Part shown: positions 7,201-13,200 of the stretch, in pieces | Layout: each line of letters opens with the position of its first letter | Position numbering within the stretch: the stretch's first letter is position 1 | From: Zootoca vivipara | Taxonomy: Eukaryota | NCBI RefSeq assembly: GCF_963506605.1 | Contig: NC_083277.1 | Location: forward strand, 83,762,001-83,826,000 | Direction of reading: 5' to 3' | Length of the DNA: 64,000 nucleotides | Position numbers: made by a program

Positions 7201-10200
7201 ACCCAGGGTCTGTGTTCCTTTGGAGAATTGAGAAATGGCAGAGACTTTAAGAAATATAGTTTATTCACCTATTTACACCTTCAGTCTGCATGTTGGAAGT
7301 CCCAATCTTACAGCATGGTGATCTCAAGCAGAACTTGTTTCCCAGAACCAGTGCAGCACAGGAGTCAAAGACATCTCTCCCAGCCAGTCTTCAGCCAGCC
7401 TGCCCAAGATGGAACTCACTCTTTCTTCTTCCCAGCCCACCTTGTTCTGAAGACTCTCCTTTCCTGACACCTGAAACACACACCCCATCACCATGGCAAC
7501 CTCTGTCTGCCCAAGCCCAAGAATCATTTTTGAGCCATCAACAACTTTTGTCATGTTTAATGCCCAGGTGAAGAGCTGGCTTGGGAAGGAAGCTTAGCCT
7601 GTTTCCCCCTACTGGCTTGCAATCTTCCCTTCAGTACTCTAAATAATCAAATTCCTACCATTTATTAATTTCTAGGGTTTAGAGGAGGTCCCCCTTCACA
7701 AATCTATAACAATTTGTTTTTCATTATGATCAAACAAAAGTAGATGTTTATTGCAGTGAAGAAGGTTCAATAAGAAAGCGGTGTCACATCCCTAAGGCAC
7801 TTTTCACATGGGCCAAACTTGTAAAAAGGTAAAGGGACCCCTGACCATTAGGTCCAGTCGTGACCGACCCTGGGGTTGCGCGATCATCTCGCATTATTGG
7901 CCAAGGGAGCCGGCATACAGCTTCCAGGTCACGTGGCCAGCATGACAAAGCCACTTCTGGCGAACCAAAGCAGCATACGGAAACGCCGTTTCCCTTCCCG
8001 CTTAGAGCGGTACCTATTTAACTACTTGTACTTTGACGTGCTTTCGAACTGCTAGGTTGGCAGGAGCTGGGACCGAGCAACGGGAGCTCACCCCGTTGTG
8101 GGGATTCGAACCGCCGACCTTCTGATCGGCAAGCCCTAGGCTCTGTGGTTTAACCCACAGCCCCACTTGTGTTCTTTGGTTCTTTTGCATCAAATGTAAA
8201 CAAACTAAACAAAAATGCCTCTTACTGAGGTGTCTTTGGTCCTCCTGGTCTGCCAGTAACTCTTCTGACTGGCAGAGGCTCTTTGAGGTCTCTCAAGCTG
8301 AGGTCTCTCCCAGATGTGCTTCTGGAGATTCTGCAGTACAAGTAAGCTTCTCCTTGCATACCTCCTAAATGCTTTCACTCTCCAGCGATACTTACAGTGG
8401 TACATCGACTTACGAATGACTCGACAACCGAATTTTTCGACTTACGAATGGGTGCAAATGGCTGCACGCTTATGAATTTCTTGACATCTGAACGGAAACC
8501 ACAGAGTTTTTAGTTTAGTTTTTGAAATGTTGTCGTGTTTGCCACCCTGGGCTGCTTCAGGAGGAAGGTGGGGTATGAATTCAATAAATATATAAAAGAA
8601 GTAAATAAAGATGTTCTTCTAATGTCAGCTTTCTACGTTCTAAATTCTTGTAAGAAGATACTGTTCCCCCCACTGTGTATTGAATGAAGTTTTTTTGACT
8701 CTAAAATCATGTCCAAAAACTGGGGTTGTCCAATACACGGATACTGGCATTGGGGGGGGGGGAGAAGCAGCATGCCGCTGGCAGGAGTGCAGCTTCCCCC
8801 GATGCTGCAGCGAGCGATCTGGGGTGTGTGTGTGTTTTCTGCCCACAGCTGCGTGGGGGGGGGGGAGAAGCTGCGCACTGCCACCCAGCTCGTTGGCAGG
8901 AGCGCAACTTCCCTCGATGCCACTGCATGCGGGAAATGATCTAAGGAGTGTTTCCTGCCCACAGCTGCATGGAGGGGAGAGGCTCAACAACTTTGGGCCA
9001 TCTCACCTCATTTTCTTAAAACTGAGTCCCCAAAAATGGGGGTGGGGGTATTATACATGGGGGCGTCTTATAGACTGAAAAATACGGTAACTGTTTTGCA
9101 AGAGTTAAAATTCCCTGTCCCAAAGTTGGGGCTTGGAGACAAGAAATCTCTGGCTGTGTGAACACATTCATTTTTGCTCTGCATTCAGTTTGGGATGCAG
9201 TGAGCACATGACGTTAGAAAAAATTCATATCTATCCTGTTCTTTCTTATGAAGCACCACGTGTCAATGTATCCACACACACACACACAAACACCGTCCAA
9301 ACCATCTTCAATTTGAATTGCGAAAAAGAACAACCTAGCTTCGCTTCAAGTTGTCAATGTGAAGCCTGAAAGGACAAGAAAAACAGGATGGCAGAAGTTC
9401 ACCCATCCCTCAGCATGCTAAGTGTGTGCTCTACTCCTGAACTATGTGAACATGTGCATATGATTTACTCACATTTGTACAGAGACACATGGGGTGCACT
9501 CCCCAGGCCCACTGCGGGGAACACTGGGGAGCAGGTGAGGAGAAAATCCATCAATTCTCTATCTTTTTCCTAGGATTTCCTCGTTTATAACATGAAAGAG
9601 AAGACCTCACAGTGGATTGGCTTAAGATACACGACAACAGAAATGGCGTGGAAGTGGGTGGATGGCACAAATGCCTCTTACACTTGAGCTTTCATTCTTT
9701 CAGTGGATTTATCTCAGATCTCTCGTGATGTTTCAAAAGCACAGCTGGCCAGCTATGTTAAAGAGAGTTATATCATGCAGCGGCTGGTCTTTTATGGATA
9801 AGAGAATGGATCCTGTTGGAGAACCCAGAGATACTAGATCTGGAAGGGTACAAAAATTGGCATGGTTGGCATTCCTATTTATTGTACGAAAAAGTAAGAG
9901 TACATAGAGGTTTCCTAAACCATCTAGTAAGAAAATCTTTATATAATATATGGGCCAAATTTAGAGGAATACTGGAACCAAAGATACCACTGTGGGCTTC
10001 ACCAGGAGAAGCTACAGCAGTGAAAAAACTAAATATGGAAACAAAATGGATAACATATAGAGAAATGTTGGAAGGGACAAAGGAAAAATTAAATTTGAAA
10101 GAATATGAAAAAATCAAATTGAACATAACAGATTGGTTCCAATATTTCCAGATAAGGCAGAGGTTTATGGAAGATCAGAAATTAGGAATTGCAGAAGAAA

Positions 10201-13200
10201 CATCAAAGTTTGAAAAAATAATAACGCAGAAGAAAGGAAAGTATATCTCGCAATTATACAATACTCTATTGGAATGGGAATTATTCGAGGAGCGAACAAA
10301 ACCAACCATGATAAGATGGGCCCAAGACTTGGGCCATAATATTTCAATAGAACAATGGGAAAAACTCTGGCAAAAAGATATAAAATTTACCCTATGTTAC
10401 ACACTAAGAGAGAACATTCTTAAGATGATGTACAGATGGCACCAAACACCAGACAAATTGGCCAAAATTTACAAAAATAGATCCCACATGTGCTGGAGGT
10501 GTGAAAAAGAAAGGGGTACATTTATGCACATGTGGTGGAGCTGTACAGAGGTGGGGGTGTTTTGGAATAATATATACAGTAAAGGTAAAGGGACCCCTGA
10601 CCATTAGGTCCAGTCGTGACCGACTCTGGGGTTGCGCGCTCATCTCGCATTATTAGCCGAGGGAGCCGGCGTAAGAACTAAAAAAATTATTAAAGTGTAC
10701 ATTTACTAAAAGACCAGAGACACTCCTGAGTATAATGCCAAATGAAATGGAGAAAACAAAGGTAACATTACTTATGTATGGAACAACAGCGGGTAGAGTA
10801 TTAATAGCGAGAAATTGGAAGAATAAGGTAGTGCCCAGTATAACAGACTGGCAAGCACTAATGATAGAATATATGCAACTGGCAAAAACAACTGGTAGAA
10901 TAAAAGGTCAAACTAAACAAAAAGTCAATAAGGAATGGGAAATTTTTGAAGAGTATTTGAAAAAGAATAAATTAAAAGAAACCCCATTGGCAGAAATAGA
11001 CTGTACCTTGTAAAATAAATTATTAGACATCAGTTGGAATGAAAATAAACAACACATATATCACTGTGCAAAATATAAAGGAAATAACAAGTTTAATTGG
11101 AAGTCTGTTCAGAATCTGGTGAAGAAAGTGTGAAGATGAAAGTAATAGAATAACGTGATTTTTAAGATTAGTGTGGGTTATGTGTATGTTTTTGTGATGA
11201 GTCGTATGTTGGGGGACGGGAATTATGTAGGTATGTATGTATGTATGTATGTATGAGTTAGTCGTGTAGGTATGTATGAATTAGTTAAGTGTTAGTATGG
11301 TGAGTTTATATGTCCGTAAATGTGAAGTTGTTTGTTTCAATCTATTTGCTTCATTTTTTTGTTTTAAACAATAAAGACTTTATATATATATAAAAGATAC
11401 ACAACAGAAGAAATGGCGTGGAAGTGGGTGGATGGCACAAATGCCTCTTACACGTGAGCTTTCATTCTTTCAGTGGATTTATCTCAGATCTCTCGTGACG
11501 TATCAAAAGCACAGCTGGCTAGCTATGTTAATTTGTGCCATCAAATTGTTGAATCTGTAGTTGTGGGCAGAAGGGAGGCCAGTTGGTGGTATGGGGTCTT
11601 TGTGCTGTGCTGTTGTATTGTGAGGAGAATGCTGTTTGTATGAGGTACCTTTTTCTCCTTTACATCGCAATGCAGTTGAAGCAGAATTCCAAGTACTGTA
11701 TGGTTGATACTTGGCCAATAAATTATTTTATTCTATTCTATTAAATGGGCAGTTTTGAGCTGAATACTGCAATGTGCGTTAAGTGTTTCTATCTGTGTTG
11801 GGGTAGCAGCATATTCAGTTTTTTAGTAAGTGGCCAAAAGAAAGCATTCTATCCGAATTCACATCACTCCTTCTGTTTCTCGCCTCCCCCCTCCAACCCC
11901 CGGCACCAAGTTGCACAATGCCTTGATATGGAATTCAGTATAGTCATACCTCGGTTTAAGTACGCTTTGGTTTGAGTACTTTCAGTTTAAGTACTCCGCG
12001 GACCCGTCTGGAATGGATTAATCCACTTTCCATTACTTTTAATGGGAAAGTTCACTTCAGGTTAATTACGCTTCAGGTTAAGTATGGACTTCCAGAACCA
12101 ATTACACTCATACTTTGGGTTAAGTACGCTTCAGGTTGAGTACTCCGCAGACCCATCTAGAACGGATTAATCCACTTTCCATTACTTTCAATGGGAAAGT
12201 TCACTTCAGGTTAAGTCCGCTTCAGGTTAAGTACAGACTTCCGGAAACAATTGTACTTAAACCGAGGTACCACTGTATCTCATCACAAGACTTCAGAAAG
12301 AGAGGAGTCACCCTCCTTGACCGAAAAAAGCTCAGCGCCCCTGGTCTCACAGCCACATGCTACAACATTGTTGGTGTGTGGAGGTGGGCTTGGAGTCTAA
12401 CTTCGGTAATTTCACTGGTTAGAGTAGTGGCAGCAAACTTTGCAAGGGATTACTTGTGTTCTGTCCAGAGCTGAGTGAGACCAGCTGGCTTGCCTTAGTT
12501 TGTGGCAGAAACTATAAAAGAAGCTGCTGCCTAGGGTTGTGCTGTTGCACTGGGTAAGGAAACAGCCCCCTTCCTATCTCAGCAGACATTTTTGGTAAAA
12601 AATTATAATTATAATTATAATTATTAAGTTTGTATTGAACAGCATTAACTGTTCATTGAACGGTTTGCTTTTTGCTTGACTGATACGCCACTATGTTCTT
12701 TAGCTCTGGTTCTATGGATGGTAATGTGGTCTTGTCTACTTCGTTGTTCAGCTTTGTTGTTGGGAGAGCAGCATGCAAATACTAAATCAAAATCAGCACC
12801 TGAAAGAAAAGCATCAGAAATGGCACTAAAGGGGCAAGGGGCATTTCTCAGTGGGTGGGGAAGAAGGTGAGCATGTGAAGAGGAACCACAAGGGACTAGT
12901 TACAGGTAGGTAGCCGTGTTGGTCTGAGTCGAAGCAAAATAAAAATTCCTTCAGTAGCACCTTAAAGACCAACTAAGTTTATATTTTGGTATGAGCTTTC
13001 GTGTGCATGTTCTGAAGAAGTGTGCATGCACACGAAAGCTCATACCAAAATATAAACTTAGTTGGTCTTTAAGGTGCTACTGAAGGAATTTTTATTTTGT
13101 CACAAGGGACTAGAAAGAGGGAGGCGAGGGAGAACTGACAGTCTGGCAAGTTCATCACCAGGCAAATGTTTGCTTCTTCTTCTTCTTTTCAGACAATGGG

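What the first reader, a model, noticed from the sequence alone, without database searches (positions are those of the whole stretch)
9574..11531. L1 insertion with a 138-bp duplication leaves two defective copies of gene A exon 5
Seen: 9624-9761 is repeated at 11394-11531 with a few substitutions, around a truncated L1. The repeat starts at TT|AAGA, which resembles the L1 endonuclease site. The upstream copy keeps the acceptor but its donor is TTGAG (9684) and the frame reads straight into TGA. The downstream copy keeps GTGAG (11454) but lacks the acceptor and the first 50 nt. Established: L1 TSDs are usually under about 20 bp. Inference: an unusually long TSD followed by donor loss, making gene A a pseudogene or a CTLD-truncated, adaptor-like protein that could use the L1 AATAAA at 11370.
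Basis: partly seen in the sequence, partly recalled or inferred. Interest (0 to 1): 0.65.

Follow-up and report, generated by a model that had tools for sequence, protein, structure and literature searches.

The report
L1 insertion beside lizard lectin exon
A fragment of a jumping gene (L1) landed next to an exon of a lizard immune-type lectin gene and copied 138 bases of it, and a later single-base change destroyed that exon's splice signal, so the gene now probably makes a shortened protein or none: a tidy but ordinary case of gene decay.

Summary
Window 9624-9761 and 11394-11531 are a 138-nt direct repeat with 131 of 138 bases identical. It abuts both ends of a 1632-nt, 5'-truncated, sense-oriented L1 (9762-11393). 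The L1 carries a nested 95-nt Sauria-SINE piece. The repeat starts at TT|AAGA, an L1-endonuclease-like site, and similarity stops at the L1 ends. A long target-site duplication (TSD) is the best reading. TSDs over 100 bp are a known minority class.

Gene A matches, at 100% in all five tblastn blocks, the RefSeq model XP_034963869.1, [quoted passage not shown] (195 aa). The contig is lizard, not human. That model ends ...NASYT*, the read-through of the dead donor (tt at 9684-9685, TGA at 9685-9687).

The downstream TSD copy and two paralogues keep GT, so the donor was lost after the insertion. The rest of the gene is intact: the ATG, four GT-AG introns, and an unannotated last lectin-domain exon (13193-13376).

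The Lacerta agilis orthologue model also lacks the distal lectin-domain exons.

Likely outcome: a recently disabled gene or null allele. A working "adaptor" protein is unsupported. Interest is low to moderate.

The parts
2584..2680 (+). Gene A coding exon 1 (ATG at 2584 in gccaccATGG context; cytoplasmic tail MDDGYEIEEY...)
   Evidence: tblastn of P0001 at 100% identity. Exon bounds fixed by GT/AG plus exact translation.
3566..3673 (+). Gene A coding exon 2 (cytoplasmic part)
   Evidence: flanked by ag|...|gtgaga
5361..5483 (+). Gene A coding exon 3 (hydrophobic membrane-span stretch ITFVIIYLLTIFSLIMANAAFVIAFL)
6746..6891 (+). Gene A coding exon 4 = first lectin-domain (CTLD) exon, with 3 Cys. 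Donor CAG|gtgagt.
   Evidence: Pfam Lectin_C profile positions 2-28, 18.2 bits, below the 22.6 cut-off when scored alone.
9574..9683 (+). Gene A coding exon 5 = second CTLD exon (WIGL, WKWVDG). Complete, with its acceptor.
   Evidence: Pfam Lectin_C positions 32-64, 23.7 bits.
9684..9687 (+). Dead splice donor tt (9684-9685; ancestral gt) and the read-through stop TGA (9685-9687)
   Evidence: P0001 ends ...NASYT.
9624..9761 (+). Upstream TSD copy: last 60 nt of exon 5 plus 78 nt of intron 5
9762..11393 (+). 5'-truncated L1 in the same orientation as gene A. ORF2 remnant at 9762-10578 and 10675-11013, 3' UTR at 11014-11393, (TATG)n at 11224-11255, (TA)6A tail at 11381-11393.
   Evidence: phmmer to human L1 ORF2p 8sxt_A residues 1029-1158, E 3.6e-12. 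2493 library hits, the best aligning query residues 2/3 to ~275. Relatives carry RVT_1 with or without Exo_endo_phos. The second ORF piece is collinear. Tandem repeat.
10579..10673 (-). Nested 95-nt 3' fragment of a Sauria-type SINE, antisense, interrupting L1 ORF2 without loss of ORF2 sequence
   Evidence: Two other copies in the window (7825-7917 +, 34938-34844 -) at 94-95% identity. Collinearity of ORF2 across the fragment. An (ACCTTT)n-type tail is described for Sauria SINEs (PMC13295347 passages).
11370..11375 (+). L1 AATAAA, 18 nt before the L1 end. One of 5 AATAAA and 3 ATTAAA on the sense strand of the insert.
11394..11531 (+). Downstream TSD copy: partial exon 5 (11394-11453) with intact donor gtgagc (11454-), then 78 nt of intron
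11377..11453 (+). Hypothetical 77-nt pseudo-exon. It would use the L1-borne AG at 11375-11376 and the TSD-borne donor, enters in phase 0, leaves in phase 2, and has no stop.
   Evidence: use is not shown
13193..13376 (+). Third CTLD exon of gene A (ancestral last coding exon). Open frame, 3 Cys, stop at 13374-13376. Absent from the RefSeq model.
   Evidence: Pfam Lectin_C positions 72-107, 27.5 bits. Same start (cag|A..TGG) and same C-terminal end (...H*) as paralogues B and C.

Best explanation
An L1 element retrotransposed into gene A of a lizard CLEC2-like lectin gene cluster by target-primed reverse transcription. The endonuclease nicked the bottom strand inside exon 5 (top strand TT|AAGA, 9623|9624). 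The top strand was broken 138 nt further on, 78 nt into intron 5. A 5'-truncated cDNA (about 390 codons of ORF2 plus the 3' UTR) was joined in. Fill-in of the long stagger produced a 138-bp target-site duplication. This left a complete exon 5 with its donor upstream. It placed a sense-oriented, A-rich L1 with several poly(A) signals effectively in intron 5. It also left a decoy half-exon with a live donor downstream. Later the upstream donor mutated G>T at 9684. Exon 5 can no longer be joined to exon 6 in the normal way, and read-through stops at once (ACT TGA). The predicted product is the 195-aa RefSeq protein, which has the tail, the membrane span and two thirds of a C-type lectin-like domain. 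It lacks three of the six cysteines, so it should not fold as a lectin domain. The gene is most likely a recently disabled gene or a null allele. Shown: repeat, L1 identity and boundaries, exon structure, donor state, order of events. Inferred: mechanism of the long stagger, loss of function, timing.
For: The 138-nt repeat has 131/138 identical bases, blastn E 4e-58, and no third copy. Similarity ends at the L1 ends: flanks are 18/50 and 16/50 identical. L1 identity: phmmer to human ORF2p residues 1029-1158, E 3.6e-12. The exhaustive search gave 2493 hits at E<=1e-3. The best ones align query residues 2/3 to ~275 to internal, C-terminal parts of longer proteins, for example 779-1049 of 1049. 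All 6 of the 6 relatives scanned carry RVT_1, and 2 of those 6 also carry Exo_endo_phos. ORF2 resumes collinearly after the SINE piece and ends near the relatives' ends. The target site TT|AAGA matches TT|AAAA at 5 of 6 positions; chance of >=5/6 is about 0.8% at this base composition. The TT/AAAA preference is stated in PMC2912911 passages. Gene A: P0001 maps at 100% in five blocks. Four introns are GT-AG, and only the exon-5 donor is tt. The donor G is kept in the downstream TSD copy and in paralogues B and C, both GTGAGT. P0001 ends ...NASYT, the read-through stop. Exon 6 is open and homologous to the paralogues' last exons over its whole length. TSDs above 100 bp were seen in fewer than 10% of recovered events in HeLa cells (PMC5223499 passages). 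Extremely long TSDs were tied to 5'-truncated insertions (PMC2912911 passages).
Against: Apart from one base, the gene is intact: Kozak ATG, four canonical introns, an open exon 6 and all six Cys. That pattern fits a sequencing error, or a polymorphic null allele in the sequenced animal, as well as it fits fixed decay. P0001 was modelled on what is evidently the same assembly, so it is not independent evidence for T at 9684 or for expression. No RNA data, no reads and no orthologous DNA could be examined, so the empty site was not seen. No second copy of this L1 family is in the window, so the family's true 3' terminus is not confirmed; the tail is (TA)6A, not a long poly(A). In-frame escape routes exist on paper: donors at 9612, 9648 and 9654, and the pseudo-exon 11377-11453.
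Confidence: 0.75

Rival explanations
1. The T at 9684 is a base-calling error or a private or heterozygous variant of the sequenced animal. In the species, gene A splices exon 5 to exon 6 normally, the L1 is a harmless intronic passenger, and the 195-aa RefSeq model is an artefact of one base.
For: All other features of the gene are intact: the ATG context, 4 of 4 other introns GT-AG, and an open exon 6 with its stop at the same place as in paralogues B and C. The TSD copies differ by about 5%. If the gene had been free of selection since the insertion, some frameshift or stop in about 770 nt of coding sequence would be expected (my estimate, inference).
Against: No protein of 106-2000 aa in the 5.8-billion-protein set shares words with exon 6. 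The Lacerta agilis orthologue model also lacks CTLD exons 2 and 3. No intact orthologue has therefore been seen anywhere. A single-base substitution error at exactly the +1 donor position would be a coincidence.
Confidence: 0.12
2. The truncated 195-aa membrane protein (tail, membrane span, partial lectin domain) is a maintained, functional product such as a decoy or adaptor. It would be terminated by read-through and polyadenylated at an L1 signal.
For: The RefSeq model equals this product. The stop lies in what would be a terminal exon if an L1 poly(A) signal is used. There are 8 AATAAA/ATTAAA signals on the sense strand of the insert. The Lacerta agilis model is also a tail, a membrane span and a partial domain. 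The N-terminal MDDGY.. motif is shared with two paralogues in the window.
Against: The product keeps only 3 of the 6 domain cysteines and lacks the C-terminal strands. By the recalled CTLD disulfide pattern, one Cys would be left unpaired, so misfolding is expected. The two species' models are truncated at different places and by different means. That looks like annotation of a decaying 3' end, not a conserved isoform. No expression data are available. Amino-acid change in exons 1-4 between Zootoca and Lacerta (9/158) does not differ from that of adjacent non-exon sequence read as codons (3/42; Fisher p 0.72, underpowered).
Confidence: 0.06
3. The gene is rescued by alternative splicing that keeps the frame. 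One route uses a cryptic in-phase donor inside exon 5 (9612, 9648 or 9654). The other skips exon 5 in favour of a 77-nt replacement exon, built from the L1 3' end (AG at 11375-11376) and the downstream TSD copy with its intact donor.
For: Three GT sites in exon 5 are in phase 2, like the lost donor. Among AG sites in 11200-11448, 5 give the right length class. Of these 5, 2 are stop-free (exon starts 11377 and 11425). The site at 11377 has an upstream pyrimidine fraction of 0.65, within the 0.60-0.95 of gene A's real acceptors.
Against: None of these was chosen in the RefSeq model. The candidate donors are weak on sight (GTGGAT, GTGGAA, GTGGGT). The candidate acceptor overlaps the AATAAA and has A at -3. 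Every such product deletes core lectin-domain elements (WIGL, or the WxWxDG strand). No splice-site scoring tool was available.
Confidence: 0.05
4. The 138-nt repeat is not a TSD. It is an assembly mis-join of haplotypes, or an older tandem duplication into whose junction the L1 fell, or a patch copied from a paralogue.
For: 138 bp is far above the usual 5-30 bp (PMC5223499 passages).
Against: A haplotype mis-join gives adjacent allelic copies, not copies placed exactly at the two ends of a retroelement, and 5% divergence is far above allelic levels. An older tandem duplication would need an insertion exactly at its junction with no TSD of its own. The paralogous exons are only about 40-47% identical at the protein level, so they cannot be the source. 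The repeat begins at an endonuclease-type site.
Confidence: 0.03

Closest known systems
L1 insertions with large (>100 bp) target-site duplications, recovered in cultured human cells (Gilbert 2002/2005 and Symer 2002 as cited in PMC5223499; discussion in PMC2912911)
   Same: A 5'-truncated L1, an endonuclease-type first nick, a second break far downstream, and a duplication of over 100 bp. PMC5223499 (passages) explicitly notes that such TSDs could duplicate exons.
   Different: This is a germline, fixed or segregating, old insertion (about 5% divergence between the copies) in a lizard. The L1 lineage is non-mammalian and ends in (TA)6A, not a long poly(A). The duplicated piece spans an exon-intron junction.
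Intronic sense-oriented L1s causing intron retention, exonisation and cryptic polyadenylation (PMC3192792; search listing only)
   Same: A sense L1 in an intron with several poly(A) signals. The annotated product ends by read-through just upstream.
   Different: Here read-through is forced by a point mutation of the donor, not shown to be caused by the L1. No transcript data are available.
Type II C-type lectin-like receptor genes of the CLEC2 / NK-receptor-cluster kind (the RefSeq name of P0001 is CLEC2B-like)
   Same: N-terminal tail, one membrane span, a lectin-like domain split over three exons with phases 1/0/2, and tandem paralogues on both strands.
   Different: One-to-one orthology with mammalian CLEC2B was not tested; the name comes from RefSeq. 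Gene A cannot join the third domain exon.
Young unitary pseudogenes or null alleles caused by loss of a single splice site
   Same: One disabling change (GT>TT) in an otherwise intact gene of a fast-evolving immune gene cluster.
   Different: The ancestral state of the lost site is preserved a few hundred bases away in the TSD copy. That dates the loss to after the L1 insertion.

Membership tests
L1-clade LINE insertion made by target-primed reverse transcription | Sequence collinear with the 3' part of an L1-type ORF2 (C-terminal Cys/His domain) | tested here: met
   Human L1 ORF2p residues 1029-1158, E 3.6e-12, with the Cys/His motif aligned. 404 library hits at E<=1e-10. Collinear continuation to the ORF2 stop.
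L1-clade LINE insertion made by target-primed reverse transcription | Endonuclease and reverse-transcriptase domains | tested here: not met
   This copy lacks them because it is 5'-truncated: it starts about 270 residues before the point matching the end of relatives such as P0008. They are present in relatives: RVT_1 in 6 of 6 scanned, Exo_endo_phos in 2 of 6. Absence fits a truncated copy and does not argue against L1 origin.
L1-clade LINE insertion made by target-primed reverse transcription | Complete 3' end: 3' UTR, poly(A) signal, A-rich or simple-repeat tail | tested here: inconclusive
   A 380-nt 3' UTR, AATAAA at 11370 and a (TA)6A tail at 11381-11393 are visible. No other copy of the family is in the window to confirm the terminus, and no eukaryotic DNA collection was available.
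L1-clade LINE insertion made by target-primed reverse transcription | Direct repeats of target DNA abutting both ends | tested here: met
   138 nt, 131/138 identical. Flanks outside the repeat are 18/50 and 16/50 identical.
L1-clade LINE insertion made by target-primed reverse transcription | First nick at a TT|AAAA-like site | tested here: met
   TT|AAGA at 9622-9627. 5 of 6 positions match; chance is about 0.8%.
C-type lectin-like domain (Pfam PF00059), type II receptor architecture | Lectin_C profile covered from end to end | tested here: met
   Searched exon by exon. Profile positions 2-28 (18.2 bits, below the cut-off alone), 32-64 (23.7 bits) and 72-107 (27.5 bits) of 107. This holds for the genomic exons 4, 5 and 6 together. 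The annotated product P0001 covers only the first two.
C-type lectin-like domain (Pfam PF00059), type II receptor architecture | Six conserved cysteines and the WIGL motif in one polypeptide | tested here: not met
   Exon 4 has 3 Cys, exon 5 has WIGL, and exon 6 has 3 Cys. With the donor dead, the predicted product P0001 has only 3 Cys. The assignment of the disulfide pairs is recalled, not tested.
C-type lectin-like domain (Pfam PF00059), type II receptor architecture | N-terminal cytoplasmic tail and a single membrane span before the domain | tested here: inconclusive
   An uncharged 26-residue hydrophobic stretch is visible in P0001. No transmembrane predictor was run.
CLEC2B orthologue | One-to-one orthology with mammalian CLEC2B | not tested
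   The name is RefSeq's. No phylogeny was made.
Pseudogene / null allele | A disabling lesion | tested here: met
   Donor tt at 9684-9685, against gt in the TSD copy and in paralogues B and C.
Pseudogene / null allele | No functional transcript or protein; relaxed constraint | not testable with these tools
   No RNA or read data. The two amino-acid-change comparisons are underpowered (p 0.72 and 0.16).

The most novel reading that the evidence does not exclude
The long TSD did more than leave a scar. The L1 3' end (pyrimidine run plus AG at 11375-11376) and the duplicated half-exon with its preserved donor form a new, in-frame 77-nt exon (11377-11453). After loss of the original donor, this exon would replace exon 5. 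Gene A would then still encode a six-cysteine lectin-like receptor with an L1-derived segment. Alternatively, the truncated tail-plus-membrane protein is kept as a decoy in both Zootoca and Lacerta. Either way, an L1 with an exon-spanning TSD would have remodelled an immune receptor and not merely killed it.
Probability: 0.06. Interest if true: 0.55.

Novelty: new member of a known kind. Interest (0 to 1): 0.25.

Why it matters
It is a clean natural example of a rarely documented L1 outcome: a germline TSD above 100 bp that spans an exon-intron junction. Because the duplicate preserves the state of the target at the moment of insertion, it acts as an internal fossil. It shows that the splice donor was still intact when the L1 arrived and was lost later. 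For annotation, it explains why the RefSeq protein XP_034963869.1 ends after two thirds of a lectin domain, and it shows that an intact, unannotated last exon lies 3.5 kb downstream. It does not change what is known of L1 biology or of lectin-like receptors.

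Tried and rejected
- Exon 5 alone could not be searched: at 36 aa it is under the 40-aa minimum.
- The exon 6 search ('longer' lengths, 106-2000 aa) gave 1 candidate and 0 hits. 'Near' and 'shorter' lengths were not searched.
- The exon 4 search ('longer') gave only P0001 and P0002.
- The exon 5 search through P0001 residues 156-195 gave only P0001 itself. No close orthologue with an intact domain was therefore found.
- The three exonic differences between the TSD copies (9633, 9637, 9638) could not be polarised. 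Paralogues B and C are too divergent there.
- No second copy of the L1 family lies in the window, so the 3' terminus and the element's age from family divergence could not be obtained.
- Rfam on 9000-13448 gave nothing at gathering level. The best match was a hairpin at 12948-13086, at 63 bits against the 95 needed.
- Pfam on the L1 pieces gave only a weak zf-RVT match (E 0.034) and nothing for the second piece. The identification rests.
- Constraint tests from amino-acid differences were underpowered. A first version used miscounted totals and was redone.
- I first reasoned by eye that no in-phase acceptor exists for the downstream copy. The script showed two, so that statement was dropped.
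- Haplotype mis-join, a pre-existing tandem duplication and paralogue conversion were considered and rejected (see rivals).
- Structure prediction, complex prediction and the bacterial/archaeal genome collection were not used, because they could not bear on the question.

Full report
**Observation.**
- Window 9624-9761 and 11394-11531 align without gaps over 138 nt with 131 identities. The seven differences are at 9633, 9637, 9638, 9684, 9729, 9732 and 9750.
- blastn of 9500-11700 against the 64-kb window scores the pair at E = 4e-58 and finds no third copy.
- Outside the repeat, identity falls to 18/50 on the left and 16/50 on the right, so the duplication has sharp ends.
- The acceptor, the 110-nt exon, the ttgag at 9684 with the immediate TGA (9685-9687), the gtgag at 11454, the missing first 50 nt in the second copy, and the AATAAA at 11370 are all as described.

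**The insert.** The 1632 nt between the copies (9762-11393) are the 3' part of an L1.
- The 281-codon open frame starting at 9762 matches human L1 ORF2p residues 1029-1158, including the Cys/His motif, at E 3.6e-12.
- An exhaustive HMMER search of 1.84 billion representatives gave 2493 hits at E<=1e-3 and 404 at E<=1e-10.
- The best hits align query residues 2 or 3 to about 275 with internal, C-terminal parts of longer proteins, for example residues 779-1049 of 1049 and 729-1002 of 1029.
- Six of these relatives were scanned against Pfam. All 6 carry RVT_1 and 2 of the 6 also carry Exo_endo_phos.
- L1-type sequence therefore begins within one or two codons of 9762, and the copy is 5'-truncated.
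- The frame is interrupted at 10579-10673 by a 95-nt antisense piece of a SINE. That SINE has two other copies in the window at 94-95% identity. Its (ACCTTT)n-type tail fits the Sauria SINE as described in PMC13295347 (passages).
- ORF2 resumes collinearly at 10675 (P0006 residues 292-387 of 399) and stops at 11011-11013.
- A 380-nt 3' UTR follows, with a (TATG)n run, AATAAA at 11370 and a (TA)6A tail.
- The insert is 39% A on the gene's sense strand and holds 5 AATAAA and 3 ATTAAA.

**Why a target-site duplication.**
- The repeat abuts both ends of the element.
- It starts at TT|AAGA, which matches the L1 target TT|AAAA at 5 of 6 positions. The preference is stated in PMC2912911 passages, and chance of such a match is about 0.8%.
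- A haplotype mis-join would not put the copies on either side of a retroelement, and it would not give 5% divergence.
- A pre-existing tandem duplication would need an insertion exactly at its junction with no TSD of its own.
- The paralogous exons are only 40-47% identical in protein, so they are not the source.
- TSDs of 5-30 bp are typical. TSDs above 100 bp were seen in fewer than 10% of recovered events in HeLa cells, and their authors note that they could duplicate exons (PMC5223499 passages).
- Extremely long TSDs went with 5'-truncated insertions (PMC2912911 passages).
- The event is uncommon but of a described kind.

**The gene and the organism.** I searched the spliced model exon by exon and left out any search with a joined model.
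- Pfam places exon 4 (6746-6891), exon 5 (9574-9683) and an exon at 13193-13376 on Lectin_C profile positions 2-28, 32-64 and 72-107.
- The exon-4 search returned P0001, [quoted passage not shown], XP_034963869.1, 195 aa.
- P0001 maps to the window in five tblastn blocks, each at 100% identity. The contig is therefore lizard, not human.
- The coding exons are 2584-2680, 3566-3673, 5361-5483, 6746-6891 and 9574-9683.
- Four introns are canonical GT-AG and the ATG sits in gccaccATGG. Only the exon-5 donor is tt.
- P0001 ends ...NASYT, so the RefSeq model is exactly the read-through product. Because it was built on evidently the same assembly, it is not independent proof of the T or of expression.
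- The exon at 13193-13376 belongs to no protein of 106-2000 aa in the searched set.
- That exon is open and has the three expected cysteines. It begins cag|A..TGG and ends ...H* just like the last exons of paralogues B (32362-32246, minus strand) and C (23684-23577, minus strand). It is the ancestral last exon of gene A.

**Order of events.** Both TSD copies descend from one target sequence. The downstream copy and paralogues B and C have G at donor +1. The target therefore had GT when the L1 arrived, and the G>T change at 9684 came later. The insertion itself left exon 5 and its donor whole and simply lengthened intron 5 by 1770 nt.

**Consequence.**
- With tt, normal joining of exon 5 (phase 2) to exon 6 is lost.
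- Read-through gives a 195-aa protein with 3 of the 6 domain cysteines. By the recalled C-type lectin fold, it should not fold.
- Skipping exon 5 shifts the frame, by the phases found.
- On paper, in-frame escapes exist. Three in-phase GT sites lie inside exon 5 (9612, 9648, 9654).
- A second escape is a 77-nt pseudo-exon (11377-11453). It would use an AG that ends the L1 AATAAAG, together with the preserved TSD donor. Of 5 AG sites of the right length class in 11200-11448, 2 are stop-free.
- None of these escapes is supported by any data I could reach, and all of them delete core parts of the domain.

**The Lacerta agilis orthologue.**
- P0003 (XP_032992252.1, 200 aa) sits in the same 90% cluster as P0001.
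- It matches exons 1-4 with 9 of 158 residues different.
- It then reads 19 codons into intron 4 and ends in an exon that maps to window 8274-8342 within intron 4. It too lacks the second and third domain exons, but by another route.
- This hints at older trouble at the 3' end. It may equally be an annotation effect.

**Age and constraint (rough, inferred).**
- The TSD copies differ by K2P 0.053 (7/138, 95% interval 2-10%).
- The absence of any frameshift or stop in about 770 nt of coding sequence suggests the donor was lost well after the insertion, or that the T is an allele or an error.
- Amino-acid change per codon in exons does not differ significantly from that in flanking non-exon sequence. 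The counts are 9/158 against 3/42 (p 0.72) and 2/48 against 14/119 (p 0.16). Both comparisons are underpowered.

**Comparison and verdict.** This is a new instance of known things: an L1 with a large TSD, a sense intronic L1 (compare PMC3192792, search listing only), and a splice-site null in a fast-evolving lectin-receptor cluster. The 'adaptor' idea is not.

**Unchecked.** Reads at 9684, the empty site in relatives and any transcript evidence could not be examined. The N run at 13449-13583, 72 nt after the exon-6 stop, was left as it is and limits any reading of the old 3' UTR.

Noticed in passing
window 19968-20038 and 20451-20521: A second long flanking duplication: a 71-nt direct repeat (94% identity) on either side of a 412-nt insert. 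The insert contains a hairpin-type repeat of a 6-copy family and sits inside what reads as a LINE reverse-transcriptase frame. Long duplications beside insertions may be less rare in this genome than in human data.
   Followed up: partly
window 8274-8342 (intron 4 of gene A): An open stretch (RGSLRSLKLRSLPDVLLEILQYK, then TAA) matches the C-terminal 23 residues of the Lacerta agilis orthologue model P0003 (21 of 23 identical). It is an alternative terminal exon used in that species' annotation. In this window, the point where P0003 leaves intron-4 read-through (about 6946-6948) shows GA, not GT.
   Followed up: partly
window 23577-37945 (minus strand) and 54808-60863 (plus strand): Gene A is one of at least four tandem CLEC2-like genes. 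Gene C lies at about 29829-23577 (-), gene B at about 37945-32246 (-), and gene D at about 54808-60863 (+). The three-exon lectin domain is the same in all, and B and C share the MDDG(Y/F).NE.Y N-terminus. The motif recalls the hemITAM DEDGYxxL (recalled), but here +3 is not L.
   Followed up: partly
window 12948-13086: A near-perfect inverted repeat of about 139 nt (arms of about 64 nt) lies 105 nt upstream of the exon-6 acceptor. It gives symmetric sub-threshold miRNA-family matches on both strands (mir-559, 63 bits against 95 needed). It is probably a foldback or MITE-type repeat.
   Followed up: no
window 7825-8125 (+) and 34640-34938 (-): Two longer copies of the same tRNA-headed Sauria-type SINE whose 95-nt 3' piece is nested in the L1. 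One of them lies antisense in intron 4 of gene A.
   Followed up: no
window 13449-13583: A run of 135 N lies 72 nt after the stop of gene A's exon 6. The first AATAAA after that stop is at 13925.
   Followed up: no
window 11932-12262 and 36669-37072: A 149-nt tandemly doubled repeat family (GGTTTAAGTAC-type units) occurs in intron 5 of gene A and again in gene B's region.
   Followed up: no
window 42925-43810: Two adjacent tandem arrays, with units of 103 nt (2 copies, 98% identity) and 122 nt (several copies, 97-98% identity).
   Followed up: no
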